A DNA stretch of 62,190 bases from a virus (taxonomy: Duplodnaviria > Caudoviricetes). How positions within the stretch are numbered: position 1 is the first letter of the stretch; the number at the start of each line of letters is the position of its first letter. A program made the translations under genes and the position numbers. Under the pieces are notes generated by a model, which saw only the letters and a list, made by a program, of their open reading frames with translations, was not told where the DNA came from and made no database searches. Below, one piece after another: positions 2,895-51,500 of the stretch. The DNA is taken from positions 1 to 62,190 of IMG/VR virus record IMGVR_UViG_3300031787_000118; one strand, given 5' to 3'.

Positions 2895-3033
2895 CTAAAC
2901 CTAAAAACTCTATGAAAAAAACTTATTGTTAAATGAAAAAATAGCTTTGAGTTTCTGTTAACGAGTTACACCCATCATATTATTTCTCAAAGCTATTAAC
3001 TAACTAAAAACCAAAACTATCAAAAATGTATAT

Positions 3034-3122
3034 TGGTACTCCAAGAGGGATTTGAACCCTCACAATCTTTTCAGATTACAGGATTTTAAGTCCTGCGTGT
3101 ATACCTGTTCCACCATTGAAGC
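3034..3122 (-). tRNA. tRNA-Leu(TAA), CCA encoded
   Basis: Minus strand GCTTCAATGGTGGAACAGGTATACACGCAGGAC-TTAAAA-TCCTG...long variable arm...GGGTTCAAATCCCTCTTGGAGTACCA; anticodon TAA. Confidence 0.93.
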
Positions 3123-3290
3123 ATAAGAATTGGGTATATTTCTATACCCAATTAAATTGACAATAAACGTAACCCCACGTTACCCTATGAACTTTTTGTT
3201 TTAATCTTAAATTAAATAATCTCATTACACGCCAAACAGTAATGATTCTTCAGATTTAGCCTTTAAATAATTATTTAATTTTTGTTTTAG

Positions 3291-3363
3291 TATTCCCATC
3301 AGGACTCGAACCTGAAACCTACAACTTAGAAGGTTGTTGCTCTTCCAATTGAGCTATGGAAAC
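3291..3363 (-). tRNA. tRNA-Arg(TCT), CCA not encoded
   Basis: Minus strand GTTTCCATAGCTCAATTGGAAGAGCA-ACAAC-CTTCTAA-GTTGT-AGGTTTCAGGTTCGAGTCCTGATGGGAATA; anticodon TCT. Confidence 0.92.
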
Positions 3364-3421
3364 TGAACCTCTCCACAAATATAATTCTTTTTTTGTTTTT
3401 CATAGAATTATAAGGAAAAAT

Positions 3422-3456
3422 TGTCAAAACTAAGGGGGGGTGTTGAGGGGAAGGAC
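3422..3456 (-). promoter_or_regulatory. 35-bp repeated early-region motif, copy 1 (candidate phage RNAP promoter) upstream of the tRNAs
   Basis: Plus strand TGTCAAAACTAAGGGGGGGTGTTGAGGGGAAGGAC aligns without gaps to four other intergenic copies. Confidence 0.65.
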
Positions 3457-3488
3457 TAATAAAAAATAAACTAAATCCTTTTACAGAT

Positions 3489-3686
3489 TTAGTTTAAATG
3501 AAAAACCATTAAAGATATTTCATTAGTTTTCTTTAATTCTTGTATAACACCACTAACATTTTCAGTTGTACCTATAACCATTGATTTAGGTATATGCTCT
3601 TTAATTACAAGTGCAGATGAATTCTCATTAGCAATTTGTAAAAGAATAAGTATTGGTTCATCAACTTTTATGTCTGTAGTTAACAT
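3489..3686 (-). CDS. Hypothetical protein
   Basis: ORF track 3489-3773; ATG at 3686 (MLTTDIKV) avoids the overlap with the upstream gene. Confidence 0.5.
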   Translation of the reverse strand: MLTTDIKVDEPILILLQIANENSSALVIKEHIPKSMVIGTTENVSGVIQELKKTNEISLMVFHLN

Positions 3687-3702
3687 AGTTATTTGTTTTC
3701 TT

Positions 3703-3963
3703 TTACGTTGTTTGAGGATTATCAGTATTAAACACACAATCGTCATCAGCATTAAGATTAATGTTGTTATCATCTATCCACTTTTTTAATATGCTTTTGT
3801 TATTATACTTTCCAACAAAAATACTAAGAGAAGAGTTTTCTCCTCTTAGTATTATTACATCTTTTTTTGGAGAATTAACAACTAAATCTCCAAACATCTT
3901 TTTCATGCAAGAATCACTTGCCTTATACTTTTCATTCCCCATTTCTTTGTTGTGGTTGTGCAC
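3703..3963 (-). CDS. Hypothetical protein
   Basis: ORF in a tightly packed minus-strand run; start may be 3942. Confidence 0.5.
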   Translation of the reverse strand: MHNHNKEMGNEKYKASDSCMKKMFGDLVVNSPKKDVIILRGENSSLSIFVGKYNNKSILKKWIDDNNINLNADDDCVFNTDNPQTT

Positions 3964-4186
3964 TTAATGTATCATCCATTTTATCAATACTTAAAGATAA
4001 GAATATTCTAAGAATTTTTCTAAAAATATCTAATTCTTTATAAATGATAATTCCATGTAATCCACCAATTGTTAACACACTATCTCCTACATGTAACATT
4101 GGAAGATAAATTGCAGATTCTACAACATTAGAATCATAAGATTCTATGATACTGTCATCAGCTCCATTTATAATTTCTATTTTCAT
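3932..4186 (-). CDS. Hypothetical protein
   Basis: 84-aa ORF with an ATGA overlap with the upstream gene. Confidence 0.55.
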   Translation of the reverse strand: MKIEIINGADDSIIESYDSNVVESAIYLPMLHVGDSVLTIGGLHGIIIYKELDIFRKILRIFLSLSIDKMDDTLSAQPQQRNGE

Positions 4187-4365
4187 TTGAGATTTCTTTT
4201 AATTTTTACAAATGTTGCACCCATAAGTATAGGCCATATTGCAAAATGTAATGGAAAAAGAACTATGAAAGAAACTAATATTTCAAGAAAACTTGGTTTT
4301 TTCCAATCAATTTCACCAATTGTCATTCCAAGTGCAACTAATACTGAAAATAATAAATATGTCAT
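4183..4365 (-). CDS. Small membrane protein (two hydrophobic segments)
   Basis: 60 aa, hydrophobic N-terminal and central segments, basic C-terminus. Confidence 0.6.
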   Translation of the reverse strand: MTYLLFSVLVALGMTIGEIDWKKPSFLEILVSFIVLFPLHFAIWPILMGATFVKIKRNLK

Positions 4366-4367
4366 AA

Positions 4368-4637
4368 TTATGGTTTTTTCAATGATTTAAAATAGTTATT
4401 TACAAATACTGCTTGTTCATTACTTAATTCAACACAAGCATGTATAATTTCTTTGTTTTCTTCAAATTTTCTGAGATTATGATTTTCTAAAAATCTCATT
4501 TGTAATTGGGTATAGCAATATAATAAATTAGCTTTAATTACTGCTTTAGTACATCCCTCAACTGCTCCTGAATCTATAGATTTCTTTATGTTTCCATAAC
4601 ATTCATCTAAGAATTCTTCTATTTCTTGTTTGCTCAT
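4368..4637 (-). CDS. Hypothetical protein
   Basis: 89-aa ORF in operon-like packing. Confidence 0.6.
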   Translation of the reverse strand: MSKQEIEEFLDECYGNIKKSIDSGAVEGCTKAVIKANLLYCYTQLQMRFLENHNLRKFEENKEIIHACVELSNEQAVFVNNYFKSLKKP

Positions 4638-4723
4638 CTTTGTCCTGCTCCAGTCTTAATTTGTGTTTGAGAAGGTGCTTCTTGTCCTGTAGTGGTTTCT
4701 CCACCATTATTCTGAATATTCAT
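4634..4723 (-). CDS. 29-aa microprotein MNIQNNGGETTTGQEAPSQTQIKTGAGQR
   Basis: Fills the gap; its TGA overlaps the ATG of the next gene (ATGA). Below the ORF-track cutoff. Confidence 0.5.
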   Translation of the reverse strand: MNIQNNGGETTTGQEAPSQTQIKTGAGQR

Positions 4724-4735
4724 AGTTGTTTGAAA

Positions 4736-5011
4736 TTAAAAAGTGTTACGAAAAAATGAAATTACTTCAACCCATTTAGATTCTTCTCTTGTTGTAGAAA
4801 TATCATATCCTTGAAAATACACATGATGTTTTCCAAGTATTGTTTCAACTTTCACATTACTCACTAACAAGTTATGTTTAGGTTCAACTTCATCACTCAC
4901 CATTATTTTATTTGTATCTAAATAATAGTCATAATGTATTGTTTTACCTACCCATTCATTGTGTAAAGCTTCTTGAATTAATTGCTCTACATTATATTTC
5001 TTTTTTCCCAT
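4736..5011 (-). CDS. Hypothetical protein
   Basis: 91-aa ORF. Confidence 0.6.
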   Translation of the reverse strand: MGKKKYNVEQLIQEALHNEWVGKTIHYDYYLDTNKIMVSDEVEPKHNLLVSNVKVETILGKHHVYFQGYDISTTREESKWVEVISFFRNTF

Positions 5012-5026
5012 AGTTTTATAAATTGA

Positions 5027-5052
5027 AAAGGGAATGATTTCTCATTCCCTTT
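5027..5052 (-). terminator. GAAA-loop hairpin
   Basis: Minus strand AAAGGGAATGA-GAAA-TCATTCCCTTT. Confidence 0.6.
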
Positions 5053-5063
5053 AATGTTACTAA

Positions 5064-5372
5064 TTAATTCTCTTGGAATTTTATGTCATAACTGTTTCTC
5101 ATTCCTGCATGTACAGGGTATGAGGTTTTGCCTTGTGTTTTGATATGAATGAAACTAAATTGTTTTTTAGCTTCATTAACAATTACTTGTTTCTTGCCTG
5201 CTCTTAGTTTACCAAACACATAATTGTTCAATTTCTTTAGTTGTTTGTTAGCATAGGATTTTTGTTTTCCTTTATTTACATATACAACTAAATCTTCTTG
5301 ATGAAGTAATTTAGCTTCTTCATTTGTTGCTCTGATTACAGCTCCTGTGCTTTTGAATTTGATGTTTTTCAT
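5064..5372 (-). CDS. Basic hypothetical protein
   Basis: 102 aa, Lys-rich. Confidence 0.6.
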   Translation of the reverse strand: MKNIKFKSTGAVIRATNEEAKLLHQEDLVVYVNKGKQKSYANKQLKKLNNYVFGKLRAGKKQVIVNEAKKQFSFIHIKTQGKTSYPVHAGMRNSYDIKFQEN

Positions 5373-5384
5373 GATTTGTTTTAA

Positions 5385-5687
5385 TTAAATAGTTTGTAAT
5401 AATTGTGTTTCTTCTATTTCTGCTGTAATGTCTTCATGAATATGTTCAAATCTCCATTCAGCAAATGAGAGTTCTCTTCTAATACCACCCAATGAAGGAA
5501 TGGTAAATGTAGGATTTCTTATCTCTTCAAGTAAATAAGAAACTACTAATCCATCATTGTCAAATGTTTCTCTAATGGTGTAAGTTTCTCCTTTTACAGG
5601 AAAAGATAATGGCAATCCTTTAGCTTCTCTTGTTAACTCTTCAATTACTTTTGAAAAGTTGTCATTAATACATTTTACTTTATTCAT
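5385..5687 (-). CDS. Hypothetical phage protein
   Basis: 100-aa ORF (VKCIND...GETYTIRE...LEEIRNP...FAEWRF). Confidence 0.65.
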   Translation of the reverse strand: MNKVKCINDNFSKVIEELTREAKGLPLSFPVKGETYTIRETFDNDGLVVSYLLEEIRNPTFTIPSLGGIRRELSFAEWRFEHIHEDITAEIEETQLLQTI

Positions 5688-6139
5688 TTAAACTCATGTG
5701 GTTTAATGTGAAATAATAGTGAGAATGTAACATTAGTATTTGCTTTTTGACTTTTCCATATCCAATCAAGTCCAAAGTTTAAATTAACTTCTAACTTATC
5801 TTTAAATATGTATCTACCTCCAGCAGTTACACCAGTTACAAAACTCTTATGTTTGTAAATGATATTTGACCAATTTACTGTTATCTCTTTGTTAGTGACA
5901 AAGTATTTTTGGTGTACATCAAATACACAATATCCCTTTTGCATTCCTATTCCCAATTTATAAAAATTAGGGAATACTCCAATGTGAGCACGTAGTAATT
6001 TGTAATCAATTCCTACAATAATTGCAGGTTTTGTTTCTTGTTCAACTCCGTAATCAATGCCTAATCCAAAATGAGGATTAACTTGTGCATTGCTAAACTG
6101 AACAATAAAAAGTGCTAATAAAATAATAATGTTTTTCAT
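5684..6139 (-). CDS. Signal-peptide protein, possible small outer-membrane beta-barrel
   Basis: Signal peptide MKNIIILLALFIVQFSNA-Q followed by alternating amphipathic strands (FGLGIDYG, IIVGIDY, LGIGMQ, VTAGGRY, LNFGLDW). Confidence 0.6.
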   Translation of the reverse strand: MKNIIILLALFIVQFSNAQVNPHFGLGIDYGVEQETKPAIIVGIDYKLLRAHIGVFPNFYKLGIGMQKGYCVFDVHQKYFVTNKEITVNWSNIIYKHKSFVTGVTAGGRYIFKDKLEVNLNFGLDWIWKSQKANTNVTFSLLFHIKPHEFK

Positions 6140-6444
6140 GTTAATGGTGGATTTTGTTGATTAAATTCATTGGTTAATTTCAAAATGTTTTGTAAAAGAT
6201 TTACTTGAGGGTCATAAACTGATTTTGCTTGTTCAAAACCATGAGTTTTTCCATGATTAAAATGATATTGTTGATTTGTTAATTCTTGATTTTTAAGAGG
6301 TTCTATAAATCTCAATACCTCTTTTAATGCTGTTTCATAAGTTTCTTGTCTTTTACCTCCAAATCTATTAGAAGTTGACATAAGTCTTTTGACTTCTTTT
6401 TCAATTGCTTCTATGATGCTGTTCATAATGTTAATTATTATCAA
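6136..6444 (-). CDS. Hypothetical protein
   Basis: About 100-aa ORF; start may be the internal MNSIIE. Confidence 0.55.
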   Translation of the reverse strand: MIIINIMNSIIEAIEKEVKRLMSTSNRFGGKRQETYETALKEVLRFIEPLKNQELTNQQYHFNHGKTHGFEQAKSVYDPQVNLLQNILKLTNEFNQQNPPLT

Positions 6445-6449
6445 AATTA

Positions 6450-6479
6450 AAAAATAAAGGGGAATATTTCTACTCCCCT
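6450..6479 (-). terminator. GAAA-loop intrinsic terminator
   Basis: Minus strand AGGGGAGTA-GAAA-TATTCCCCT then TTATTTTTT. Confidence 0.7.
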
Positions 6480-6484
6480 AATGA

Positions 6485-7231
6485 TTATGCTGCAATTTTA
6501 TTTTCTATGTGCCAATTTTCATCAATGATTGTGTTATTAACATAAATACAATCATCAATTTCATTGTATTCTCTTGATTGTCTAAGATAATGATTAAAAT
6601 TGAAAATTCTTTTAGTGTCAATATTGATAGCTACAGGGATTTCACAAAGTTCTTCAAATGCTCCCTTAAACATTTGATTCATTACAGGCCAATTACAATT
6701 TCTATTGTTAACTTGTTTTTTAAACATGTTAAGAAACATCAATTGAAAGAACATAAGTTTTGGCTCACTTTCTTGAAAATAATTTCCTTGTTCGGGAGTT
6801 GTGTAAAAATTGTTTTCTATTTCTTCAAAATACATAATTGTTCTTTGCAAACCTTTGTCAGAAGTTAATAAGAAAGTTTTCTTAGATATTAAAGTCCAAT
6901 CATCAGCATGTAAAAGTTCAAGGTCTTTAAAATCTTCAATACATCTTCTTTCTATTTTATTATCCCAAATAATAAGTAATTCAGGAATAACAAATACTCG
7001 TGCATCTTCATCATAAGTGTGATTAGCACTTTGCATTTTTAAAGTTCTTATTAATTCTTTATAACCTTTAGTTACAAGGTCAATTTGTAATTTTACATCT
7101 TTGTCTTCAGTTTTAATCATAAACATAAGGCAAAGGTATTGTCTAATAAATTCTGAAGCATTTCCAAAAATAGAAAATTGCATTAAGAAATTTAAGATTT
7201 CTTCTGTTGTAATTTTTTGATAGTTTTTCAT
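6485..7231 (-). CDS. Hypothetical protein
   Basis: 248-aa ORF, no recognised motif. Confidence 0.7.
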   Translation of the reverse strand: MKNYQKITTEEILNFLMQFSIFGNASEFIRQYLCLMFMIKTEDKDVKLQIDLVTKGYKELIRTLKMQSANHTYDEDARVFVIPELLIIWDNKIERRCIEDFKDLELLHADDWTLISKKTFLLTSDKGLQRTIMYFEEIENNFYTTPEQGNYFQESEPKLMFFQLMFLNMFKKQVNNRNCNWPVMNQMFKGAFEELCEIPVAINIDTKRIFNFNHYLRQSREYNEIDDCIYVNNTIIDENWHIENKIAA

Positions 7232-7394
7232 GGTTTTTTGAGTTTTATTTAGAGTTATTAAATTAGTTAAAAAACAATGTACGTGCTAAATTGTGGACGT
7301 TAGGCAACTATACACCAGCTGACTAACTATTTCTTTACATTGTTAAACAAATGGTTAGCTGCCAACTTTCAGGGCTGACTACATATAACCATTT

Positions 7395-7709
7395 TTACTT
7401 TTTGTTTTTATAATAATGTTGAACATTTTCTTTTCTTGTTAACCATTCTAAATTTGAACTGTTATTATTGAGTTTATTCCCATCCATATGGTTAACTGTA
7501 TCTTTGTTTTGTAAATTTTCACAAAAAGCTTTAGCTACTAAGATGTGAATTTTTACTTTTTTAACTTTACCTTTAATACTAATGTTACAATATAAATATC
7601 CTCTTTTATTTATATTACATTTTAATATTTTACCTTTTCTGTTTTTAAATCTGCCATAATTAGATATTTCATAATTATTAGATTCTTCAATGTTTTTCCA
7701 CTTTTCCAT
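7395..7709 (-). CDS. NUMOD4 + HNH homing-endonuclease-like protein
   Basis: N-terminal MEKWKNI...YEISNYGR (NUMOD4), then IHILVAKAF...VNHMDGNKLNNNSSNLEWLTRKENVQH (HNH). Confidence 0.88.
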   Translation of the reverse strand: MEKWKNIEESNNYEISNYGRFKNRKGKILKCNINKRGYLYCNISIKGKVKKVKIHILVAKAFCENLQNKDTVNHMDGNKLNNNSSNLEWLTRKENVQHYYKNKK

Positions 7710-7729
7710 ATGATAAATTTATTTTTTTA

Positions 7730-8452
7730 GAACCCTCTCTTACAACTATCCCCAAAGGAAACGATTTCTCTGTCATTGTAAGAGTAGGGTCACGTGATTA
7801 TTTCAATGATTTCGTTCTATCAATATTTCAGATAGTGCAGTACTTTCAACTATACATAATCACTTGCTGAGAACTCATTTGTGTTGTAGGGCTACTTGGC
7901 TTTCCCTCTTACCTATAGATTTTTATTCCTTTCTCAAGAGAACAACACATTCCAACTTTCATTGGACATCTTTAATGAATTTTGCTTACTTAGCTTACAG
8001 TAGAACTTTAATCCACTAACATGTTAAGGAATTACACCTTATTGCTGTAAGCTTACTTCTGTTCATTCAGGAATCAATGTTTAGCCTGTTTGTTTATTTT
8101 AACTTATTGTTTGGTATGCTGAATAACCAAGAACTACGTTTTAATATTACATGATTTTAATAATTTGTATAACAATATCAACTATGTTTCCCTATAGAAA
8201 ACTACAATCAATATTATTAGATGTTTGGACTTTTGTTATTTAGTAAAATAAAGGGAATGTTTTTCATTGACATTCCCTTTAAGTTTGAGCTTAACACTCT
8301 TTAATTTTAGAATTCGAGTTTGCTAATGCTCTGAGATTGTGGATTTACATTTCCAAAGCAATAAGGAAAACACCTTTAGTTTGTTTTATTTCCATAACAT
8401 TATTACACTAATACACCATGTCAAACTAATACGATAACTGTAATAATTTAAT
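7730..8452 (-). ncRNA. Putative structured non-coding RNA cluster
   Basis: No ORF of 60 aa or more. Consecutive closed stems at 7732-7790, 7794-7863, 7880-7948 (pseudoknot potential) and about 7975-8066; lies directly downstream of motif copy 2. Confidence 0.5.
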
Positions 8453-8487
8453 TGTCCAAAATAAGTGGGGGTGGAGAGGGAATGGAT
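8453..8487 (-). promoter_or_regulatory. 35-bp repeated early-region motif, copy 2
   Basis: Plus strand TGTCCAAAATAAGTGGGGGTGGAGAGGGAATGGAT. Confidence 0.65.
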
Positions 8488-8494
8488 GAAAAGA

Positions 8495-8524
8495 AAATAT
8501 AAAAGGATTTCTCCTTTTATATTT
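8495..8524 (-). terminator. GAAA-loop hairpin
   Basis: Minus strand AAATATAAAAGGA-GAAA-TCCTTTTATATTT followed by a T-rich tract. Confidence 0.6.
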
Positions 8525-9026
8525 AACTCATTAAACTATCAAGTAGTTGAATAACTAATTCAATATTATTAATAGATTTAAAATCACCAAGTAATAAATT
8601 TATTTGCTCACCATAGATTTCTACAAATTCTGCAAGTGTGTTAAAATAATGTGGAAGCATTTCCCATTTTAGTATTAAATTGTAGAATGCTGTAACCATT
8701 TCTTCATTGTATTCTATATCCCAAGTAATCATTCCTGTACCTGAATCTATTCTTTGCTCGTGTTTTGTAATAATTTTTGGGCCATATTCATTATATTTAA
8801 AATCCCAACTACCACCTGAAAACACTAATACATTTCTAATCTTAGAATATTCTAAATCTAAATAACATAATTGTTCTGATATTAAATATAAAAGTTCTGT
8901 TGCTTTAGTTACAACATAAGGAGCATAATGTAATCCCTCTGCATTTTTATAAGTAATTAAAAAGTTTTGACATAGCATAAAAATATTTGTTTTATAATGA
9001 ACTAATCTTTTAAAAAATATGTTCAT
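8523..9026 (-). CDS. Hypothetical protein
   Basis: 167-aa ORF. Confidence 0.6.
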   Translation of the reverse strand: MNIFFKRLVHYKTNIFMLCQNFLITYKNAEGLHYAPYVVTKATELLYLISEQLCYLDLEYSKIRNVLVFSGGSWDFKYNEYGPKIITKHEQRIDSGTGMITWDIEYNEEMVTAFYNLILKWEMLPHYFNTLAEFVEIYGEQINLLLGDFKSINNIELVIQLLDSLMS

Positions 9027-9055
9027 TTTTATAAATTAAAAATTGATAAAAATTG

Positions 9056-9164
9056 ACAAATGTCAATATGAAATAATACTTTACTCCCTTCCCTTATATA
9101 TTGGTAAAGGAGAGAGTCCAGAGAGAGGAAACCCCTGTAAAGTTTTTTTCATATTGACATTTGT
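9056..9164. repeat. 109-bp element bounded by a perfect 18-bp inverted repeat
   Basis: ACAAATGTCAATATGAAA (9056-9073) and its exact reverse complement (9147-9164), with a purine/pyrimidine-skewed interior. Confidence 0.8.
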
Positions 9165-9166
9165 GT

Positions 9167-9448
9167 TTAATAATCAAATTCAGTATCAAAAATATCAATT
9201 AAATATTGTTTAAAATCTTCATAAGATTTAAACTCATTCACATTTCCATCCCTTGTTACTGCAATAACTTTAATAAAATCTCCTACACTTGTAGGCCCTG
9301 ATTTTAATTGTTCATGAAATACAGTTACAAGAATATGATGTGGAAAATCTTTAAAACTTAATGCAACTGTATCCATTGCTTCAGTTTTATAAGTTTCATA
9401 AGAACACCATCCAATTTTAGGGAATTTGATTGATAATATATATTGCAT
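9167..9448 (-). CDS. Hypothetical protein
   Basis: 93-aa ORF. Confidence 0.6.
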   Translation of the reverse strand: MQYILSIKFPKIGWCSYETYKTEAMDTVALSFKDFPHHILVTVFHEQLKSGPTSVGDFIKVIAVTRDGNVNEFKSYEDFKQYLIDIFDTEFDY

Positions 9449-9503
9449 AATTTGTTTATATTTAAAAGTTTACAATAAGAGAGCTAATTAAAGCTCTCTT
9501 TTT

Positions 9504-9794
9504 TTAGTTTTCTCCGTAAGCATTATCACAATTAGAACATAACCATTTACAATATGTATTTAGTTCTGTTTTCTCTTCACTTTCACAAAAAGGGCAAGTT
9601 ATATCATTTTCATCAGTAACTATATCCCAACCTACATCTTCATTGTTATCAAGCCATTTTTCAAATGCTTCTTGTATTTGTTCTTCAATGGTGCCGTTGT
9701 CTTCATATAGTTTTACTTCAACTATTTCTTCAGTATAACCTGCATTACACCAAAAATTAACTTTGATAGTTTCAGGCATTTTTTCATTGCTCAT
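9504..9794 (-). CDS. Acidic protein with C-terminal Zn-ribbon
   Basis: CPFC...CSNC motifs; very acidic. Confidence 0.65.
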   Translation of the reverse strand: MSNEKMPETIKVNFWCNAGYTEEIVEVKLYEDNGTIEEQIQEAFEKWLDNNEDVGWDIVTDENDITCPFCESEEKTELNTYCKWLCSNCDNAYGEN

Positions 9795-9806
9795 AATTAT
9801 ATAGTT

Positions 9807-10007
9807 TTATTTGTTCCATTTCTTTTTATATCTTGTAATAAAGTCAATTGGAAACTTAGAACTCCAACCACAAGAACAAGTAAATTGTTCAATTTGTGGA
9901 CTCCAAGTAGTTCTTGGATTTCTATGTTTACAATTGTCATTACCACAATAAGGAGAGTAATTTTCTACTTCCATTAAGTTTTGTCTTACAATTGAATCTT
10001 CACTCAT
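9807..10007 (-). CDS. Small Cys-rich (Zn-finger-like) protein
   Basis: YSPYCGNDNC...FTCSCGW. Confidence 0.65.
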   Translation of the reverse strand: MSEDSIVRQNLMEVENYSPYCGNDNCKHRNPRTTWSPQIEQFTCSCGWSSKFPIDFITRYKKKWNK

Positions 10008-10022
10008 GTTTAAATAAATTTA

Positions 10023-10054
10023 AAAGAATAACTGTATTTCTACAGTTATTCTTT
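10023..10054 (-). terminator. GAAA-loop hairpin
   Basis: Minus strand AAAGAATAACTGTA-GAAA-TACAGTTATTCTTT (14-bp perfect stem). Confidence 0.65.
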
Positions 10055-10060
10055 GGTTTG

Positions 10061-10420
10061 TTATTTGGATATATTTAAAGTTGCATGTGGAAATGCAATG
10101 CAATCAACTAATAGTTTTTGTAACCAAGGAATGAATTGTTCTCTTGTTCCCCAACCATTAGATGCTGAAAATACATTGAATTTTTCAGGATGATTTTGCA
10201 AATTTTGTATTGCTTCAGTTAATGGAGCAATTAAAGCACCTGCTTTTGTATCATAATCCATATCCCATAAAATACCACAACCTGATTCTCTTGCCATATC
10301 TCTAAGGTTATGAGTAATGTTATGTTCAAATATGGTTTCATAAGTTCCTATTTCACAATGTCCACAATTAGGACATTGATGTGTTTGTACAGGCATTGTA
10401 CCATAAATATCTAAACTCAT
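10061..10420 (-). CDS. Conserved-looking hypothetical phage protein
   Basis: MSLDIY...CPNC...NITHNL..MA...LW...NGWG pattern, recalled from other phage early proteins. Confidence 0.7.
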   Translation of the reverse strand: MSLDIYGTMPVQTHQCPNCGHCEIGTYETIFEHNITHNLRDMARESGCGILWDMDYDTKAGALIAPLTEAIQNLQNHPEKFNVFSASNGWGTREQFIPWLQKLLVDCIAFPHATLNISK

Positions 10421-10482
10421 AGCTTTATTATTTAGTTAAATTAAAAAATAAAAGAGAATCCTTGTTAGGGATTCCCTTATGA

Positions 10483-10761
10483 TTAGTTGATAAATTCAAT
10501 TGAGCCATCATCAGTTCTGATAATATATTTTTTAACTCTATGGTAATTGTTTCCTGATATTTGACATCTACCATTTGTAAAAAATCTAAAAGTTTCCCAA
10601 TTACAATCTCCATCTGCATCAGGTTCAGTACTCCATGCACAAGTGAAAGATTCATCTTCTTGTGTTTTAGTAAATTTGTCAAAGTTTTTAGCAAGTTGAG
10701 ATTTAATTTCAACTGCTTTTGCTATTTGTTCTACTGTATAATTTACATTTGTTTGTAGCAT
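10483..10761 (-). CDS. Hypothetical protein
   Basis: 92-aa ORF with an ATG start; preferred over the overlapping frame 10428-10712. Confidence 0.6.
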   Translation of the reverse strand: MLQTNVNYTVEQIAKAVEIKSQLAKNFDKFTKTQEDESFTCAWSTEPDADGDCNWETFRFFTNGRCQISGNNYHRVKKYIIRTDDGSIEFIN

Positions 10762-10818
10762 GTCTTTAGGTTTTAAAAAATAAAGAAAAAAGAGAGAGTT
10801 GTTACACTCTCTCTGAAA

Positions 10819-11181
10819 TTAGTTTACAGTTGTTCCTTTAGGTATGAACACTTTGTATGAAACACTTGCATTGTGATTATTCACAATGAACTGTTTTCCT
10901 TGTGAGATAACAGTATTGTTTTCATTAACTACAGTTGCAATTGGTGTTGCAGTGTTAGCAACTTGTTGAGTAGCTACAGTGCCACCATTAGTGCTAACAT
11001 AGGTTTCAACAATGATTCTGCTACCTTTTGCTTCTACAACTTGTACTTTACCCTCTAACTTGAGGGTAACTGTAGGTGTTGCTACTACAGTTTTGTGAGT
11101 AGCAACAGTATTTTGTGCATAAGTTGACAAATGAAGACAAGTCAACAACATGATTAGGATAAGAGTGAGTACAGCTTTCAT
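10819..11181 (-). CDS. Secreted/periplasmic protein (signal peptide)
   Basis: MKAVLTLILIMLLTCLHLSTYA-Q signal peptide and a Thr/Val-rich beta body; first gene after motif copy 3. Confidence 0.7.
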   Translation of the reverse strand: MKAVLTLILIMLLTCLHLSTYAQNTVATHKTVVATPTVTLKLEGKVQVVEAKGSRIIVETYVSTNGGTVATQQVANTATPIATVVNENNTVISQGKQFIVNNHNASVSYKVFIPKGTTVN

Positions 11182-11211
11182 GATAAGTGAGTATTATAAG
11201 TTTGTAATAAA

Positions 11212-11246
11212 TGTCAAGACTAAGTTGGGGTGGATAGGTAAGGGAT
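11212..11246 (-). promoter_or_regulatory. 35-bp repeated early-region motif, copy 3
   Basis: Plus strand TGTCAAGACTAAGTTGGGGTGGATAGGTAAGGGAT. Confidence 0.65.
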
Positions 11247-11249
11247 AAA

Positions 11250-11610
11250 TAAAAAATAAATAATCAAGCTCCCTTTATTCGATGACTCGGCTGTGGATTT
11301 AAGTGTGTACAGCTTAGTACACTTGATTATTTAAAAAACTATTAACAGAGCATACATTATTTCATTAAGATAAAGTAGAGAATATAGTCTTCCAACTGAC
11401 ATCACTCACAGTAGCAATTTTCTTCTAAACAATTGTGCACCATTGCTTAGTTACTTCTTGTTGTACTGCATCAGTTTTCACAAACTGATTGTATCTTAAT
11501 TAGTATGTTGTTAATAGTTAACAATGCTTTTAAACCAAGTGCATTGTAAATTCGTCTTGTCATAATTATGCGCCTTCTTTCGGAAAGCAGGGTTTTATGA
11601 GTCTACCCTG
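11250..11610 (-). ncRNA. Putative multi-domain structured ncRNA (about 350 nt)
   Basis: ORF-free interval between motif copies 4 and 3. It has a 5' hairpin pair with pseudoknot potential, a multibranch domain 11338-11518 with a GTGA tetraloop, and a closed domain 11260-11330 followed by a T-rich tract. Confidence 0.55.
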
Positions 11611-11643
11611 TCAAAACTTAATGGGAGTGTGAAGGGAATGGAT
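11609..11643 (-). promoter_or_regulatory. 35-bp repeated early-region motif, copy 4
   Basis: Plus strand TGTCAAAACTTAATGGGAGTGTGAAGGGAATGGAT. Confidence 0.65.
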
Positions 11644-11672
11644 TAATAGAAATAAAAAAGTAAAATACTCTT

Positions 11673-11855
11673 TTATTTATCTAATTTAATAAAAGACATC
11701 CAAATGAATATTAGACCAAAAGAAATGCCTAAATACATTTGTATGAAGTCACCTATTTTTTGGTCAACATAAGTTTGTGGTATAAATGCCATGATTATAA
11801 AACTTATACCTACAATGAAAGGTATAAGTTTGAGCATGATGAATGATAGTTTCAT
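11673..11855 (-). CDS. Small two-TM membrane protein
   Basis: 60 aa with two hydrophobic helices. Confidence 0.6.
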   Translation of the reverse strand: MKLSFIMLKLIPFIVGISFIIMAFIPQTYVDQKIGDFIQMYLGISFGLIFIWMSFIKLDK

Positions 11856-11935
11856 AATAGTGTGAAATGTGATAGGTTAAATAAAAAGAAATACTATACC
11901 TTACGGGATATAGTATTTCAATGGTTTGTGATTTG

Positions 11936-12205
11936 TTAGAGTGTGGTTAAGGTTGTGAGTCCTGCACCTTCTGCTACATTGATAAGACATGCAGATTCCA
12001 TAATAGGATTGCCTTTCTTATCAAATTCACTACAGATGAATGAGAGATTACCTTTAACATCAATGTCTTGTTGACATTTGAGTGCGGTATCTTCATCGAC
12101 AATGACAAATAGTTTGTCTGTCTTTGGGTTTTTCACAACTTTAATTTCTGTCACACCAAAGTGTGCTTTGACCTGAGCCACTGAGAAGAATTTTACATCA
12201 GCCAT
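11936..12205 (-). CDS. Small early protein resembling a conserved crAss-like family
   Basis: IKVVKNPKTDKLF motif recalled from crAss-like early proteins; first gene after motif copy 5. Confidence 0.7.
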   Translation of the reverse strand: MADVKFFSVAQVKAHFGVTEIKVVKNPKTDKLFVIVDEDTALKCQQDIDVKGNLSFICSEFDKKGNPIMESACLINVAEGAGLTTLTTL

Positions 12206-12240
12206 GATAGTAGAGTATTAAATGGTTTAAATTAATTTAT

Positions 12241-12275
12241 TGTCAAAACTAAAGGGAAGTGGAAAGGGAAAGGAT
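12241..12275 (-). promoter_or_regulatory. 35-bp repeated early-region motif, copy 5
   Basis: Plus strand TGTCAAAACTAAAGGGAAGTGGAAAGGGAAAGGAT. Confidence 0.65.
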
Positions 12276-12364
12276 ATTTATGTGCCAAGAAAAGAAAACA
12301 TTGGAGCAAAGGTGGGGGTATGAAAATCAAATTAGAAAAGGGTGGGGTTTTATTAGAGGGGAAT

Positions 12365-12493
12365 CACACATTAACTATTTCTACAACTTCTAAAAAATTT
12401 TATAAAAAATCCACACATCAACTATTCACATAACTCCTAAAAATTTTATAAAAAATAAAACACACTATCTCCTAAAATTATTTTCAAAAAAAT
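12365..12493 (+). repeat. Imperfect tandem direct repeats (about 46 bp x2 plus a shorter copy) at the strand switch
   Basis: CACACATTAACTATT...CTAAAAAATTTTATAAAAAAT / CACACATCAACTATT...CTAAAAATTTTATAAAAAAT / CACACTATCTCCTAAAATTATTTTCAAAAAAAT. Confidence 0.7.
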
Positions 12494-12539
12494 CTGAACC
12501 TTTTTTCAGTTTAATTTCTTACTTTGTTATTACTTTTTT

Positions 12540-12547
12540 TATCTTTG
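12540..12547 (+). promoter_or_regulatory. Bacteroidota -7 promoter element (TAnnTTTG)
   Basis: TATCTTTG 14 nt before the first plus-strand ATG. The upstream TTTG at 12523 is closer than usual spacing. Confidence 0.45.
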
Positions 12548-12561
12548 TAAAAATTATAATC

Positions 12562-45521: not shown

Positions 45522-48500
45522 ATGAATCCTGATAACGGCGAACTTGCAAATCAAAATACCAATCCTATTACCTCTCCTTCACAAGAACCATTAACTATAA
45601 ATGTTAATGGTAAAGAAGTTGTTATTAATCCAAACCAAGTAGCTACTGGTATTGTAGAAAATGGAGTATCTAAATCTAAGATGGCAGATGTATCTTGGAG
45701 TACTGGTAGTAAATCTAATGACCAAATTCAATCTGAACTTAAAGGATATGAAGCAAAGTTTGAAAGAGAAAATAAGATAGCAGAAGCTGATGGTGTTTTA
45801 GAAACAGCAGGTAAGTTTACTGAATCATTTTTAACATCAATGGCAGCAGGTATGTGGGATATTGCAAGTGCATTTGATGTGGGAGATTGGAGATTACCTG
45901 AAATGTATGGTGCTGGAACTGCTATGAATTCTGTATTCAAAGCAGTTGACAATACTATTGGTGATGGTGAAAAAGAAGTAGGTAACTGGTTTTCAAGAAG
46001 AGCTGCACTTATCAGAGAAGAGAGTGCTATCAATGATAAGATGAATACAGGTAACTCTTATGTTGATTATGGGTTAGGTATGGTTGCAAATGTAGGTGGT
46101 TCTATTGCAGGTATGGGTGGAGCATTGAAAATGTTAGGTATGGGAATGCATGCTTTAAGAGCAGGTAAAACATTAAATACTATTACAGGTACTGTAGCTG
46201 CTACTTATGGTACTGCATTTTCAATTGCTGAAGGAGTTAAAGATGAAGTTTATCAAAGAACACTTCATGACCTTGCTCCTGATTTAAAATCACTAGAACA
46301 AAATACTCATGGAGAAACTTATAATAAAGCTCTTGATGAAGGTAAGTCAGCAGAAGAAGCAGAGTATTTAGCAAGACAAGCAGTTAAAACTGTAAGGGAT
46401 GAGTATGCAAAATCAAATCCTTTACTTCATGAAGCTGCTATGAGTAGTGCAATGAAAGGTGCTGATGCTGCTATTAAATTTTCTACTATTGGTTTCTTAC
46501 TCAACATGGGTCAAGCTACTCAATTTATTAAAGGACACTATGCTTCAAGAAAAGTATTAGAAAGTGCATCTACATTTTCTACTAAAGAAATATTAAAAGA
46601 AGCAGGTCAAGAAGCTATTGAAGAAGGTATTGTAGAAGGAATAGCTGAAGACTATGGTGTTAACTATGGAATGAAAGGAGAGTATGGAGTTAATGATGCT
46701 CTTAAAAAGATTTGGAGTTTAGAAACTCTTGAGTCTATGGTTATTGGTGGACTTGCAGGTGGAGGTATGGCAGCATTAGCACAATACTCTAACAAGAATA
46801 TTAAAGGTGAAGATGGATTAACACATGCTGAAAGATATCAAAAACAACAAGGTTATATTAAAAAGTGGAATGAGATTGGTGCAACTGTTGGGCAACCTGA
46901 CATGATTGACCAATTAACTACTCTTAATAAAAACTCTCTTGAACTTACAGAAATTGTTAAAGAACAAAAGAAATTAGTAGCTCAAGGAAAAGAAGAAGAA
47001 GCAAAAGCATTAGGTTCTAAGATACTTTCAGTACAAGCATCTCAAGCATTTGCATCAGGCACAACTGCATCACTTATAGAAAACTATGAGAAGATTGCAA
47101 GAGATAGTAGTTTTAAACCTGAAGTAAGACAAAGAGCACAAGAAGCTTTAGTTCAAATTAAAGACATGGAAAAGGTTTATAACAAATCTTTATCTTATTC
47201 TAATGGCTCTGATATTTATTCTAACAGAGTTAATGATTATTCTTTGTCTAAAGCTGAACAAGAACTTAAAAATAAAATTATTGAAAAGAAACTTGAAGCA
47301 AATACTGCAATTGAATCTTCATTGAGAAGTGGAGAAACAAGTTTAAAAGTTAAAGATACTTTAAAGGTAGTTGATGAATACAATCAAAGAGTTGTAGATG
47401 AAGAGGTAGATAGAGATTTGAGTTATAACTTAGATACTTTGTTTGAAAATCCTTATACAAATCAAACTGAAGCTGATGCTTACAGTTCATTTAAAGACTA
47501 TGCTTCTAAAAACATTCAAGCTGTAAGAGAACTATTAGATTTACAAGGTCAACTTAAAACTATTCAACAACATAAAGACGAAAACAATAAAACATATAAT
47601 AAGATAACTTCTAAGCAATTTCAAAGAAGTTTAAAATTCCAAGATTCATTAACTCGTGATATCAGGTCTAATAAAGAAACTATGGATTCTTTTAAAGGTA
47701 CTGATAAGTTTATGCCTTATCTTGATAACATACTTAAAAAGTATAAAGGTAAAATTGATGATTCCACTTTGGAATACATCAAGGATAGGTATGAGTTAGA
47801 AAATGAAGTTACTAAGGAAGCATCTAAAAAAGCACAAACTGAAGCTGTTAGTAAAGCATTAGGTAAGAAGGGGGAAGAGAATAAACAAGTTGCACCTACT
47901 ACTAAGACTGATGATAAACAAACTGTAGAAACTATTGCAACTAAAGTTAATTCAGGAATTGAATTGAGTAAAGATGAAAAAGAATTCTATACTCAATTCC
48001 CAACTCAAATTGATGATAGACTCAAACAATTAAAAACAAGTACTGAAGGGGAAGGTTCTCAATCAGGTACTATGCAAACTAATGAAGATTTAGAAGTTGA
48101 TGGTCAAGACACTCTCAACCCTGAAAGACAATTAGTAGCTACAAAGCTCAACAATATTACAAGTATTGTTGAGGATAGTTTGTTTGAGGAAGAAGCAGAA
48201 ACAGTAGAAACTTTAAGTCCTGCACTTACAAGTAAAGTAGATAAAATTAAATCTGACCCTTCATTTATACAAGATGGAGTATATAAAACATCTGCACTTA
48301 AAAGATTCTTAGGTAAAGATTTTGATACTGTAATGGATTCATTAATGAAAACAGGTACAGTAGAATTTGATGGTACTAATTATGTAGTTGCAGGTAAACA
48401 AACTGCTAAAGTTACACCTAATAACAATGATATTCAAATAGCTAAAATTGAAAGTAGAAGATTAGAAGAATTAAATGCTACTAAAAAAATAGGAGAAGAT

Positions 48501-51500
48501 AATCTTAAAGAAGGTAGAAAACTTACTAAAAAAATAGTTGAATCATTAAAACAAAGGTACCCTGTAACTTCTGCAAAAGGTATTATAATTAGAATTTTAG
48601 AAAAATTAATTGATTTTAACAAATACTCTACAATTGTAGATTCTAAATATATTAATGGTCAAGGAGCAAGTGGTCAAGCTACATGGTTTGGTATGATGAT
48701 TTCTCAAGAAACTCTTGATGGAATTTTAGAAGGTAAGGAACATGAAGTTCACACCTTTATACATGAATTCATACATGGTTTCACTACATCTAAAATATCA
48801 GATTATAATATTGAAAAGCTTGGTTTAATACCTGGTTTTAAATCTAAACTTACAAGTAAAGAAAAAAATGCAATAGAGCAACTTCAAAGAATATTTGAAA
48901 AAGTTAAAAGAGATAATCCTAATCTTAAAGAATATGGATTTACTAATTTAGATGAATTTATTGCAGAAGCATTTAGTAATGAAAGTTTCCAATACACTTT
49001 AAAAAATACAAAATCAGAAGGTAAAAAATCTAATTTATTTGTAGAATTTATAAATGCTATTGGTGATATATTATTTGAACAATTAGAAAGATGGGCTAAA
49101 AGACAAAATAAAGAAATTCCAAATAGAGAAACTATTACAGGAATTTTAGAAGATGTATTAGCTTGGACAGAAGAATTGATTGACCAAAATAATAAACTTG
49201 CTTACATTGGAACTGCTGAAGAAATCAATGCAAAATATGATGCAGAAATAAAAGCATTAGGAAATACTAATCAAAGTACTAAACCCACCACAAAACCAAA
49301 TACAGGATTAAGTGGATTAGCAATATCTATTATTAACTCCCCAAGTTTTCAAGAAACACTTGAAGATAGATATGAGTTAAGAGTAAATTTAGATGATGAT
49401 GCTTTTAGTGATGCAGATGGTAATTTGAATTCAGCAGGTCAAGCACAAGAAGCAGGTTTCAATGAGATTAAAGAAGCAATTGATAAAGGAGAAATTACAG
49501 GTATCAAAGCTATTAGAAGAGGTAACTCTTCTATCATTACTTATGTTAAAACTAATGTTCCTGTAAGTTATGACCCTGATGAAATCTCTTATGAACCTGA
49601 TGAAATTAAAAAAGATTTAAGTGCTGAAGTTAAAGAACAAGTAAGAGAACAAGTTGAATCTTATGTAATTTCATTAGAAGGTGATTTAGGTAGAACTCCT
49701 ACATTTGAAGAGTTTATCAAAGACTATATTAAAAATGGAGGTAGAACAAATACTGATAAGTTATTTAATGTACTTATAAAAGGTTGGGAATTAAATAATT
49801 ATCCTAAATCTGATTACTCTTCTATTTATAATAAATTATTTAAGGATAGAAAACAAATGGCTAATTCATTATTAGAATTAGCTGAACAAGTTATTACACC
49901 TCAAACCAAAGAAGAAATATCTGAACAAATAAAAGAAGAAGCTAAGACTCCAACTCAAGAAAAGAAAGTAATAGCTATTAGTCCTGAAGGTAAAGTTAGA
50001 TATGAACATTTAACTATGACTTCTGAAGATACAAGACCTAAGTTAGGTTACTCTTCAAGAAAAGCTGCTCCTGTATTTTATACTGAACAAGATGGAGATA
50101 TGCAAGTTATTCAAACTGATTTTGAATATACAGAAGAAGGTTTGAGTGAAAGTGATTTGGTTAAAAGTTTAAAACTTCTTAACCCTGATAAATATTTGCC
50201 AGGTGAAGAACTTGAAGTTGTAATTCCAACAGGAGCTACACTAATGAATATGACTATTCCTGTATATAATGATGAAGGAATAAGGGCAGGTGAAACTACA
50301 TTTGGTGAATGGTTAAAAGGAAAGTTGTTAGAAAATCCTGACTTTGAAAGTACTCAAGAATATGAGGATAGAGTACCAATGTTAGTTAAAGATAATGAAG
50401 GTGATTATGTTGCTTATGTACATGAACCTGAATGGTATCATCCTTTAAAGTTTAGAGGTGATGTAAGAGAAGCACAACATAATGCAAGAGTTATTAGAAA
50501 GATGGCAATGAAAGCCAACAAAGAAGGTAACTCTGCTAAATTGAAAATTACTTCTAATCAAGGAGGTATGTTTCAACCTATGATTATTCCTAATACTCAA
50601 CCTTGGGTTAAGTTAAAAGATGCTAATCCACAAGCTAAATCAGGTATTGTTAAAAACAATGAAATACTTATAGATGGAAAACCATTTAAAGGTATTCTTG
50701 TAAATGAAAAAGATTTTTTAACAAATACAAATAACAAACCTGTAGATGTTAGAAGATGGGGAACTGATGAAAATGGTAATCCTACTTATAGAGCATTTCA
50801 ATCTACTATGCAACCTATTGAAAATGAACAAGTTGAAACTGTTTATCAAGCAGTATTAACTTATCTTTTTAATAAATCTTATAGTAAAGAACCTATTGCA
50901 TTAGAATATAAGAAAGTAAAAGATATAGTACAAAATACATTAGGTGCTAACTTTAATCTTGGTGACTATACAAATCTTGATAACTTTTTGAAACTATTCA
51001 TAATGGTTTCAAATAAGAAAATGGATTCAAATTTGACTGAAGCTCAAATTGCAGGAGTAATGAAAGCTGACCCTTATGTAGGAAAAGGATTACCTTATAT
51101 TTTTACTTATCAAGGAGGAAATGTAGTATTTGGTGTAGGTGGAGAAGCTACTGCATATAAAATAGCTCCTTCAGATTTGAAAAATGGAATAAGTGGACAA
51201 GTTCAATCTAAGTTAGATGAATTAAAAAGAATACTTCCAATGTTTAATCAAAACATTGGAATGATAGGTGGTGCAACTTATAATGGGAAAGTATTACATA
51301 TTGACAATAAAGGTAATGTAAATACTGTTAGTCCTACTTACTCTAAATACATTGGTGATAAATACTACACTAATGTAATGTCACATAATATTGGTACTGA
51401 TGACAAACCTAACTATGTTACAAGAATTCAACCTTCTATTTATTTTGAACCTACAGGTGAATTAAGTAGAAAGAAAGAAGCTGTAATTGCAAGTAAAGAA

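What the first reader, a model, noticed from the sequence alone, without database searches (positions are those of the whole stretch)
3422..12275. Five ungapped copies of a 35-bp motif: candidate promoter for the crAss-like virion RNA polymerase
Seen: copies at 3422, 8453, 11212, 11609 and 12241 align without gaps (approximate plus-strand consensus TGTCAAAACTAARKGGRRGTGKDDAGGGAAWGGAT). All are intergenic, in the same orientation, at the head of minus-strand units, and I saw none in the late arm. The motif is G-rich in an AT-rich genome and unlike the Bacteroidota TAnnTTTG promoter. Known: crAss-like phages inject a virion RNAP that transcribes early genes, and to my knowledge its promoter consensus is poorly defined. 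Inference: this motif is the recognition site for the RNAP encoded at 45522 onward.
Basis: partly seen in the sequence, partly recalled or inferred. Interest (0 to 1): 0.85.

Follow-up and report, generated by a model that had tools for sequence, protein, structure and literature searches.

The report
Early promoter motif, flavobacterial crAss-like phage
Five copies of a 35-base signal head the first leftward transcription units of an uncultured freshwater crAss-like phage, and relatives carry their own versions at the same place; it is very probably a phage-specific promoter, but sequence cannot show whether the injected phage polymerase or the host polymerase reads it.

Summary
There are exactly five ungapped copies (3422, 8453, 11212, 11609, 12241), all intergenic and on one strand, with nothing similar elsewhere in the 62-kb record.

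On the transcribed minus strand the motif reads ATCCwTTCCCT..CAC..CCC..TTAGTTTTGACA. It heads a tRNA pair, two ORF-free regions that give abundant RNAs, and two small-ORF units.

In 4 of 4 freshwater metatranscriptomes, perfect-match RNA contigs begin 8-11 nt below copy 11609 and exclude the motif.

Relatives (terminase 51-85% identical, including cultured Flavobacterium phage FpV4) carry 4-6 copies of their own version, on the same strand at the head of the same arm. The shared core is ACCCyCACTwAT.

So it is a promoter (about 0.9). In favour of the virion polymerase (DFDID domain in the giant ORF):
- very high information content;
- concerted change between lineages;
- no -33 TTG in 0 of 63 sites.

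It is exact in 2 of 5 copies here and 12 of 63 clade-wide.

This scan has noted the same kind of signal in at least 12 other crAss-like genomes.

The parts
3422..3456 (-). motif copy 1. It heads tRNA-Arg (58 nt downstream), tRNA-Leu, a phrog_16309 protein and the DNA polymerase.
8453..8487 (-). motif copy 2. It heads a 740-nt ORF-free stretch (7709-8452) that holds ncRNA-1, followed by ORFs 7709 down to 3489.
11212..11246 (-). motif copy 3. The ATG of ORF 10819-11181 lies 30 nt downstream.
11609..11643 (-). motif copy 4. It heads ncRNA-2; RNA contigs begin 8-11 nt downstream.
12241..12275 (-). motif copy 5, in the divergent region. The ATG of ORF 11936-12205 lies 35 nt downstream.
3467..3496 (-). 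hairpin followed by a T-run, just upstream of copy 1 (terminator-like, -12.9 kcal/mol, z -3.7)
8491..8529 (-). hairpin followed by a T-run, just upstream of copy 2 (-13.9 kcal/mol, z -3.95)
11647..11683 (-). hairpin followed by a T-run, just upstream of copy 4 (-9.9 kcal/mol, z -3.1)
11273..11601 (-). ncRNA-2, about 330 nt. Perfect-match RNA contigs cover it in 4 of 4 metatranscriptome runs. The strand is inferred from context.
7733..8234 (-). ncRNA-1. The core 7733-8079 is covered in 4 of 4 runs; 8052-8234 is covered in 1 run. It is homologous to the early long non-coding RNA of phi14:2.
3290..3363 (-). tRNA-Arg(TCT)
3034..3122 (-). tRNA-Leu(TAA)
45522..62189 (+). giant ORF, more than 5,555 aa and open at the record end. 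Homologue of FpV4 gp32, annotated 'virion structural protein'.
54819..57521 (+). crAss-type two-barrel RNA polymerase region of the giant ORF (residues 3100-4000). The catalytic DFDID motif is at residue 3571.
12540..12547 (+). host-type -7 box TATCTTTG, 15 nt before the ATG of the first plus-arm gene. It serves as a contrast to the motif.

Best explanation
The 35-nt element is a phage-specific promoter. It starts the five transcription units at the head of the replicative/early arm.

Read 5'->3' on the transcribed minus strand it has three parts at fixed spacing:
- an upstream TCC-type block (ATCCwTTCCC);
- a C-rich core (CAC..CCC; clade-wide ACCCyCAC);
- a T/A box (TTAGTTTTGACA) with a conserved G.

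RNA begins a few bases below the element.

The most likely reader is the RNA polymerase domain of the giant virion protein (ORF from 45522), injected with the DNA, possibly with a co-injected specificity factor. Each phage lineage keeps its 4-6 copies uniform and changes them together, as expected if the recognising protein is phage-encoded.

Shown: the copies; their place, strand and conservation; the RNA boundary at one copy; the polymerase domain.

Inferred: that the element is a promoter (about 0.9), and that the virion enzyme rather than the host enzyme reads it (about 0.5).
For: 1. Anatomy. All 5 copies are intergenic and on one strand, at the heads of units. Three of the 5 directly follow a strong hairpin plus T-run.

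2. RNA. In 4 of 4 freshwater metatranscriptome runs from 4 studies, perfect-match contigs of ncRNA-2 end at 11598-11601. That is 8-11 nt below the last base of copy 4, there is no loose end, and the motif is not in the RNA.

3. Conservation.
- The strand-neutral regex CCC[CT]CA[CT]T[AT]A gives 36 minus-strand and 1 plus-strand hits in 1.01 Mb (80 related loci, the window and a piece of FpV4). Thirty-five of the 36 lie 3.6-8.9 kb upstream of the terminase.
- 57 of 64 unique sites are intergenic, although 79% of these loci is coding.
- The complete relative G001 has 4 copies within 5.3 kb and none elsewhere in 85 kb. G002 has 6 within 3.4 kb. FpV4 has 5, all within about 5 kb of the divergent point.

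4. Concerted change. The unit motif-ncRNA-2-motif is orthologous in the window and in L022. There the 3' box is identical, but the 5' half is GTTCTTC-N4-TTAACT in every copy.

5. Not host-like upstream. No TTG lies 18-22 nt before the box in 0 of 63 sites. The four mapped host-type promoters of phi14:2 all read TTG-N20-TAnnTTTG. In FpV4, all 5 copies are 2-3 mismatches away from TAnnTTTG.

6. The enzyme exists. DFDID is present, and the profile hit to 6VR4 has E 2.7e-24. In phi14:2 the whole replicative arm is early and is transcribed by the rifampicin-resistant virion enzyme (preprint 10.1101/2020.03.07.982082, passages and section 4).
Against: - The 3' box is a fair Bacteroidota -7 box. TAnnTTTG is exact in 2 of 5 window copies and 12 of 63 clade sites, and within one mismatch in 29 of 63, against 3.7% of random positions.
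- With the box at -12 to -5, as in F. psychrophilum (PMC9723704, passages), the predicted start for copy 4 is 11607. That is only 6-9 nt above the RNA contig edges, so the RNA data fit the host enzyme equally well.
- The phi14:2 authors found no common motif upstream of early transcripts. My PWM finds only two weak copies in phi14:2.
- The polymerase core is equally diverged (61-62%) in G001, which keeps the C-run, and in G002, which lost it. The motif type therefore does not track the enzyme in this small sample.
- Only one of the five copies has an RNA edge next to it. For copy 2 the edges lie 219-374 nt downstream.
- Contigs give neither strand nor exact ends.
- Ten other terminator-like hairpins on the minus strand are not followed by a motif.
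Confidence: 0.5

Rival explanations
1. Host RNA polymerase promoter. The host primary sigma factor binds the TAnnTTTG-like box. The C-rich upstream half either is tolerated or is bound by a phage protein (injected or early) that replaces -33 recognition, as MotA/AsiA do at T4 middle promoters (recalled).
For: - The box is exact in 2 of 5 copies here and within one mismatch in 29 of 63 clade sites, against 3.7% background.
- Its position fits the RNA edge at copy 4, given the box at -12 to -5.
- One mapped host-type promoter of phi14:2 (P108) carries the very same box, TAGTTTTG.
- Leaders of 31-38 nt from the conserved G to the ATG are ordinary for flavobacteria.
Against: - No -33 TTG in 0 of 63 sites.
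- FpV4, grown on F. psychrophilum, has 0 of 5 copies within one mismatch of the box.
- 52-57 bits over 35 nt is far more than a sigma-A site needs.
- The upstream half changes in concert between close lineages, which host recognition does not explain.
- None of the six sigma-factor motifs reported for F. psychrophilum is described as C-rich (PMC9723704, passages).
Confidence: 0.3
2. Dual-use promoter. The virion polymerase reads the C-rich core early, and the host enzyme uses the overlapping -7 box later. This would keep the tRNAs and ncRNAs expressed throughout infection.
For: - Both signals are present in the window's copies.
- The early non-coding RNAs of phi14:2, one of them homologous to ncRNA-1, do not decline later in infection, unlike other early transcripts.
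Against: This is pure inference. Lineages without the -7 box (FpV4, L039) also head ORF-free regions with the motif.
Confidence: 0.1
3. Not a promoter. Alternatives are an RNA processing site, a C-rich Rho-loading tract behind leaky terminators, an operator for a phage regulator, or a recombination boundary of mobile cassettes of PeSL type.
For: - Three of 5 copies sit right after a hairpin plus T-run.
- The transcribed sense is C-rich and G-poor.
- An RNA 5' edge just below the motif would also fit a cleavage site.
Against: - Copy 5 lies in the divergent region, with no upstream unit on its strand.
- The motif is absent from the RNA contigs in 4 of 4 runs.
- Fixed spacing of 31-38 nt to start codons across the clade and a conserved T/A box fit initiation better than cleavage or Rho loading.
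Confidence: 0.08

Closest known systems
Pre-early promoters of Thermus phage P23-45, read by its virion two-barrel RNA polymerase gp96 (10.1101/2022.12.01.518664; passages read)
   Same: A conserved motif in front of the first-expressed genes of a phage that carries a two-barrel RNA polymerase fused into a giant virion protein. Relatives with the fused enzyme keep the motif.
   Different: The P23-45 motif is AT-rich and was tied to the enzyme by ONT-cappable-seq and ChIP-seq. Here the motif is C-rich, overlaps a host-like box, and has no enzyme assignment.
Early promoters of coliphage N4, read by the injected virion RNA polymerase (recalled; named in earlier scan notes)
   Same: A few promoter copies at the entering end of the genome, read by an injected enzyme before any phage protein is made.
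   Different: N4 promoters are small hairpins in single-stranded DNA. None of the 5 copies here folds better than shuffled sequence. The N4 enzyme also belongs to a different polymerase family (recalled).
Bacteroidota sigma-A promoter: -33 TTG and -7 TAnnTTTG at -12 to -5 (PMC9723704, passages). The phi14:2 middle promoters belong to this type.
   Same: The 3' box of the motif matches TAnnTTTG exactly in 2 of 5 copies, and it sits at the right distance from the RNA edge.
   Different: There is no -33 TTG (0 of 63 sites). A 20-nt conserved C-rich upstream half takes its place. The motif lies on the early arm rather than the structural arm. The box is lost in FpV4 and other lineages.
PeSL (promoter-early stem-loop) cassettes of T4-type phages (PMC2839356; abstract read)
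   Same: A repeated composite of stem-loop terminator and early promoter between small non-essential genes.
   Different: PeSL promoters are sigma-70-like and are read by the host. Here TTGACA cannot be a -35 box, because RNA starts 8-11 nt after it. Shuffling was not tested.
Promoters of T7/T3-class single-subunit RNA polymerases (recalled)
   Same: A long, highly conserved, lineage-specific motif. The clade core looks strikingly like the T3-type core.
   Different: No PF00940 polymerase gene in 0 of 5 records searched (a weak negative, since the control rang nowhere).

Membership tests
Bacteroidota sigma-A promoter | -7 box TAnnTTTG at about -12 to -5 | tested here: inconclusive
   Exact in 2 of 5 window copies. 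Clade-wide: 12 of 63 exact, 17 with 1 mismatch, 34 with 2-3 mismatches. FpV4: 0 of 5 within 1 mismatch. The RNA edge at copy 4 lies 6-9 nt below the predicted start.
Bacteroidota sigma-A promoter | -33 TTG about 20 nt upstream of the box | tested here: not met
   0 of 63 sites have TTG with an 18-22 nt spacer. All four phi14:2 middle promoters have TTG-N20.
Bacteroidota sigma-A promoter | rifampicin-sensitive initiation by host holoenzyme | not testable with these tools
   Needs infection or in vitro transcription.
N4-type virion-polymerase early promoter | short hairpin formed by the promoter strand | tested here: not met
   DNA folds of the 5 copies with flanks give 0 to -3.4 kcal/mol and z-scores of -0.91 to +0.95.
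Promoter of a virion two-barrel RNA polymerase (P23-45 gp96 type) | the phage encodes a two-barrel polymerase in a virion protein | tested here: met
   DFDID at residue 3571. Profile hit to 6VR4 at E 2.7e-24. The FpV4 homologue is annotated as a virion structural protein.
Promoter of a virion two-barrel RNA polymerase (P23-45 gp96 type) | motif at a fixed offset upstream of the earliest transcription starts, bound by that enzyme | not testable with these tools
   The only data are contig edges 8-11 nt below one copy. There is no timing, no primary 5' end and no binding data.
T7/T3-class promoter | single-subunit RNA polymerase gene (PF00940) in the phage | tested here: not met
   0 of 5 records: window, FpV4, G001, G003, G006. 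The control genomes also gave no hit, so the search itself is unproven.
PeSL cassette | sigma-70-like -35/-10 promoter joined to a terminator stem-loop | tested here: not met
   A stem-loop is adjacent in 3 of 5 copies. TTGACA as a -35 box is excluded at copy 4 by the RNA edge. There is no consistent -10 at 16-18 nt.

The most novel reading that the evidence does not exclude
This tripartite signal (TCC block, ACCCyCAC core, T/A box ending in a conserved G) is the long-sought promoter of the crAss-type injected RNA polymerase in a large flavobacterial and freshwater clade. Its upstream half co-evolves with a phage-encoded specificity determinant. Its 3' box mimics the host -7 box, so the same sites can pass from the injected enzyme to the host enzyme. 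Because cultured phage FpV4 carries five copies, this can be tested at the bench directly.
Probability: 0.4. Interest if true: 0.8.

Novelty: new variant of a known kind. Interest (0 to 1): 0.6.

Why it matters
Every crAss-like phage injects a giant RNA polymerase. The only experimental study found no promoter motif for it. My four literature searches found no later description in the held library; supplements are closed and might hold more.

This finding offers a defined, conserved candidate that also occurs in a cultured phage-host pair, FpV4 and F. psychrophilum. That turns the question into a simple experiment: map 5' ends with and without rifampicin, and transcribe wild-type and mutant templates in vitro.

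The finding also shows what the signal drives. Besides genes, it heads tRNAs and two stable RNAs that are the only parts of this 9.6-kb early-arm stretch seen in four environmental transcriptomes.

The overlap with the host -7 box is a caution for all similar calls in this scan.

Tried and rejected
- Megablast of 1-12600 against named phages: no match.
- Exact scan of viral contigs with the window's full-length pattern: 3 single hits. Two scored only 14.7-16.4 bits and the third scored under 10, so I judged them chance.
- Two pattern searches returned nothing because I mis-spaced the pattern. One search was replaced by the PWM scan. One search was corrected.
- TTGACA as a sigma-70 -35 box: rejected, because RNA begins 8-11 nt after it and Bacteroidota hosts do not use it.
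- Hairpin promoter: rejected.
- T7-like polymerase: none found.
- Motif type tracking the polymerase: polymerase-core identity is 61% in G001 and 62% in G002, although their motif cores differ. No signal.
- phi14:2 as a model: only two weak copies, facing each other in its divergent region.
- 'Every terminator is followed by a motif': false. Ten other minus-strand hairpins are not.
- RNA contigs at copy 2 begin 219 nt (1 run) or about 374-392 nt (4 runs) below the motif, with a hairpin plus T-run in between. This says nothing about that copy.
- Parts of the stretch without RNA contigs are not evidence of silence.
- Rfam at E<=1 on both ORF-free regions: nothing.
- Pfam on ten early ORFs: only an HNH endonuclease, and no sigma factor among them. 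The rest of the window was not searched for sigma factors.
- Look-ups of earlier scan notes by place and by sequence: nothing.


Full report
WHAT THE WINDOW IS

The 62,190 bases are a whole IMG/VR record, estimated 66% complete. It is a crAss-like phage: it has a muzzle protein (PF25731) and crAss-type terminase, portal and major head protein. Its nearest named relatives are Flavobacterium psychrophilum phages of the FpV4 group, with terminase 51% identical.

The layout mirrors phi14:2 and FpV4.
- A minus-strand arm (1-12205) holds the DNA polymerase (196-2157), two tRNAs and about 25 small ORFs.
- A divergent region spans 12206-12561.
- A plus-strand arm holds terminase, portal, capsid and tail genes and a giant ORF (45522 to the record end, more than 5,555 aa).

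That giant ORF contains GLDFDIDKEN at residue 3571, next to the catalytic DFDID of phi14:2 gp66. A profile of residues 3100-4000 built with four relatives hits PDB 6VR4 at E 2.7e-24 over gp66 residues 1007-1800. The phage therefore encodes the crAss-type polymerase inside a virion-type giant protein.

THE OBSERVATION

All five copies are present as described. They score 52.6-57.4 bits with their own PWM, and 35.7-47.6 bits when each is left out of the model. Nothing else on either strand exceeds 8 bits, and 20 shuffled windows reached at most 11.3. Two near-identical contigs (L004, L005) continue the genome 7.6-10 kb past the DNA polymerase and hold no copy.

ANATOMY ON THE TRANSCRIBED STRAND

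Read on the minus strand, the copies are ATCCwTTCCCT..CAC..CCC..TTAGTTTTGACA. Downstream of each lies:
- tRNA-Arg at 58 nt, then tRNA-Leu and the replication genes (copy 3422);
- a 740-nt ORF-free stretch (copy 8453);
- an ATG at 30 nt (copy 11212);
- a 360-nt ORF-poor stretch (copy 11609);
- an ATG at 35 nt (copy 12241).

Three copies directly follow a strong AT-rich hairpin plus T-run (z -3.1 to -3.95). Copy 11212 follows a T-run only, and copy 12241 has no upstream unit. The element itself forms no hairpin. Ten further terminator-like hairpins on this strand are not followed by a motif, so the arm is not a clean array of cassettes.

RNA EVIDENCE

Four freshwater metatranscriptome runs from four studies each hold 5-7% of the words of 3000-12600. 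When laid, their perfect-match contigs cover only two places, apart from short imperfect pieces such as tRNA-like matches.
- 11273-11601. The upper edges fall at 11598, 11599, 11601 and 11601, with no loose end. That is 8-11 nt below the last base of copy 11609, and the motif is never inside the RNA.
- 7733-8079 in all four runs, plus 8052-8234 in one run. This lies inside the ORF-free stretch below copy 8453, but starts 219-392 nt below that copy, with a hairpin plus T-run in between.

Even coverage would be expected from contaminating DNA, so these are stable RNAs. Contigs cannot give the strand or exact ends. I therefore treat the edge at copy 11609 as a hint that RNA starts just below the motif, and the data at copy 8453 as uninformative.

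RELATIVES

A terminase alignment brought in 80 viral contig loci, 54-85% identical, each with up to 10 kb upstream.

The strand-neutral regex CCC[CT]CA[CT]T[AT]A occurs 36 times on the minus strand and once on the plus strand in 1.01 Mb. Thirty-five of the 36 lie 3.6-8.9 kb upstream of the terminase. Some are duplicates from near-identical contigs, leaving 33 unique seeds. An iterated 24-nt PWM gives 104 minus and 5 plus hits; that count is circular for the PWM but not for the regex.

Among 63-64 unique strong sites:
- the logo is tcAA.ACCCtCACT.ATTtttG, with a weaker TCC-type block about 10 nt upstream;
- 57 of 64 are intergenic, although 79% of the loci is coding;
- the distance from the conserved G to the next ATG clusters at 31-38 nt.

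Complete genomes confine the signal to the head of the arm:
- G001: 4 copies in 5.3 kb of 85 kb;
- G002: 6 copies in 3.4 kb of 85 kb;
- FpV4: 5 copies within about 5 kb of the divergent point in 88 kb.

Two of the FpV4 copies head long ORF-free regions. phi14:2 has only two weak copies, facing each other in its divergent region. This agrees with its authors' statement that early transcripts share no upstream motif.

CONCERTED CHANGE

ncRNA-2 is conserved in L020, L022, L026 and L036 (E 4e-41). In L022, as in the window, it lies between two motif copies. There the 3' box TTAGTTTTGACA is unchanged, but every copy has GTTCTTC-N4-TTAACT in place of the window's C-rich half. L010 has yet another version. 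So copies are uniform within a genome and differ between genomes at orthologous sites. This argues for a phage-encoded reader. The polymerase core, however, is equally distant in G001 and G002 (61% and 62%), so I could not link motif type to the enzyme.

WHICH ENZYME READS IT

For the virion polymerase:
- the position on the arm that is early and rifampicin-resistant in phi14:2;
- the large information content;
- the concerted change between lineages;
- the absence of a -33 TTG (0 of 63 sites), whereas the four mapped host-type promoters of phi14:2 all read TTG-N20-TAnnTTTG;
- the loss of the -7-like box in FpV4, where all 5 copies are 2-3 mismatches away;
- host-type boxes of another kind before plus-arm genes (12540, 20922).

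For the host enzyme:
- the 3' box is TAnnTTTG exactly in 2 of 5 copies here and 12 of 63 clade-wide, and within one mismatch in 29 of 63, against 3.7% of random positions;
- with the box at -12 to -5 (PMC9723704, passages), the predicted start at copy 11609 is 11607, only 6-9 nt above the contig edges.

I put promoter function at about 0.9.

COMPARISON AND NOVELTY

The nearest described systems are:
- the pre-early promoters of P23-45 gp96;
- the N4 early promoters (recalled);
- the Bacteroidota sigma-A promoter;
- PeSL cassettes.

The element fails defining features of the last three (see the membership table), and it cannot be tested for the first. No paper in the held library describes a promoter for the crAss-type virion polymerase (searches; FpV4 search). 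This scan has already reported the same kind of signal in at least 12 other crAss-like genomes, so this case is one more member of that series.

This window adds four things: RNA boundaries from environmental transcriptomes, the presence of the signal in a cultured phage, the finding that it drives tRNAs and stable non-coding RNAs, and the overlap with the host -7 box.

Noticed in passing
window 7733-8234 (minus); 26-mer at 7862-7887: ncRNA-1 is homologous to the highly expressed early non-coding RNA of phi14:2 (g004-g005 junction; nhmmer E 3.4e-8). An invariant 26-mer from it occurs exactly in 65 viral contigs of 12-373 kb, far beyond crAss-like phages. RNAalifold on 21 of them gives 21 pairs, 8 with compensatory changes. 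There is no Rfam match at E<=1. It looks like a widespread, undescribed structured phage RNA.
   Followed up: partly
window 11273-11601 (minus): ncRNA-2 is about 330 nt and is present in 4 of 4 metatranscriptome runs. It is conserved in L020, L022, L026 and L036, with one visible compensatory change in a hairpin (CAGTTT..AAACTG against CAGCTT..AAGCTG). There is no Rfam match. Its 30-codon ORF is not conserved in L022.
   Followed up: partly
L006 4031-4500 (phi14:2): ARAGORN calls a tmRNA (tag GSSVQKLAMVA) in the g005-g006 intergenic region. This is the second 'long non-coding RNA' that the phi14:2 paper left unexplained.
   Followed up: partly
window 12365-12490: A 47-nt direct repeat in two copies, plus a partial third, lies in the divergent region between the two arms. 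It could be iterons or regulator sites. G-rich blocks at about 12310-12365 resemble partial copies of the motif's C-rich core on the other strand.
   Followed up: no
window 3376-3383 (minus): A second, host-type -7 box (TATATTTG) lies 13 nt before the 5' end of tRNA-Arg, between motif copy 1 and the tRNA. These may be tandem promoters.
   Followed up: no
window 7395-7709 (minus): An HNH homing endonuclease (NUMOD4 plus HNH_3) is encoded immediately downstream of ncRNA-1.
   Followed up: no
L007 about 47913-48025 (phi14:2 record 97913-98025): Two motif-like copies face each other in the phi14:2 divergent region. One points to the g110 arm (15.4 bits) and one to the g111 early arm (10.3 bits).
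   Followed up: partly
window 45522-62189: The polymerase domain lies at residues about 3100-4000 of a single ORF of more than 5,555 codons. The relatives' frames are 4,207-6,563 aa, so the enzyme is fused with other ejection-protein-sized parts.
   Followed up: partly
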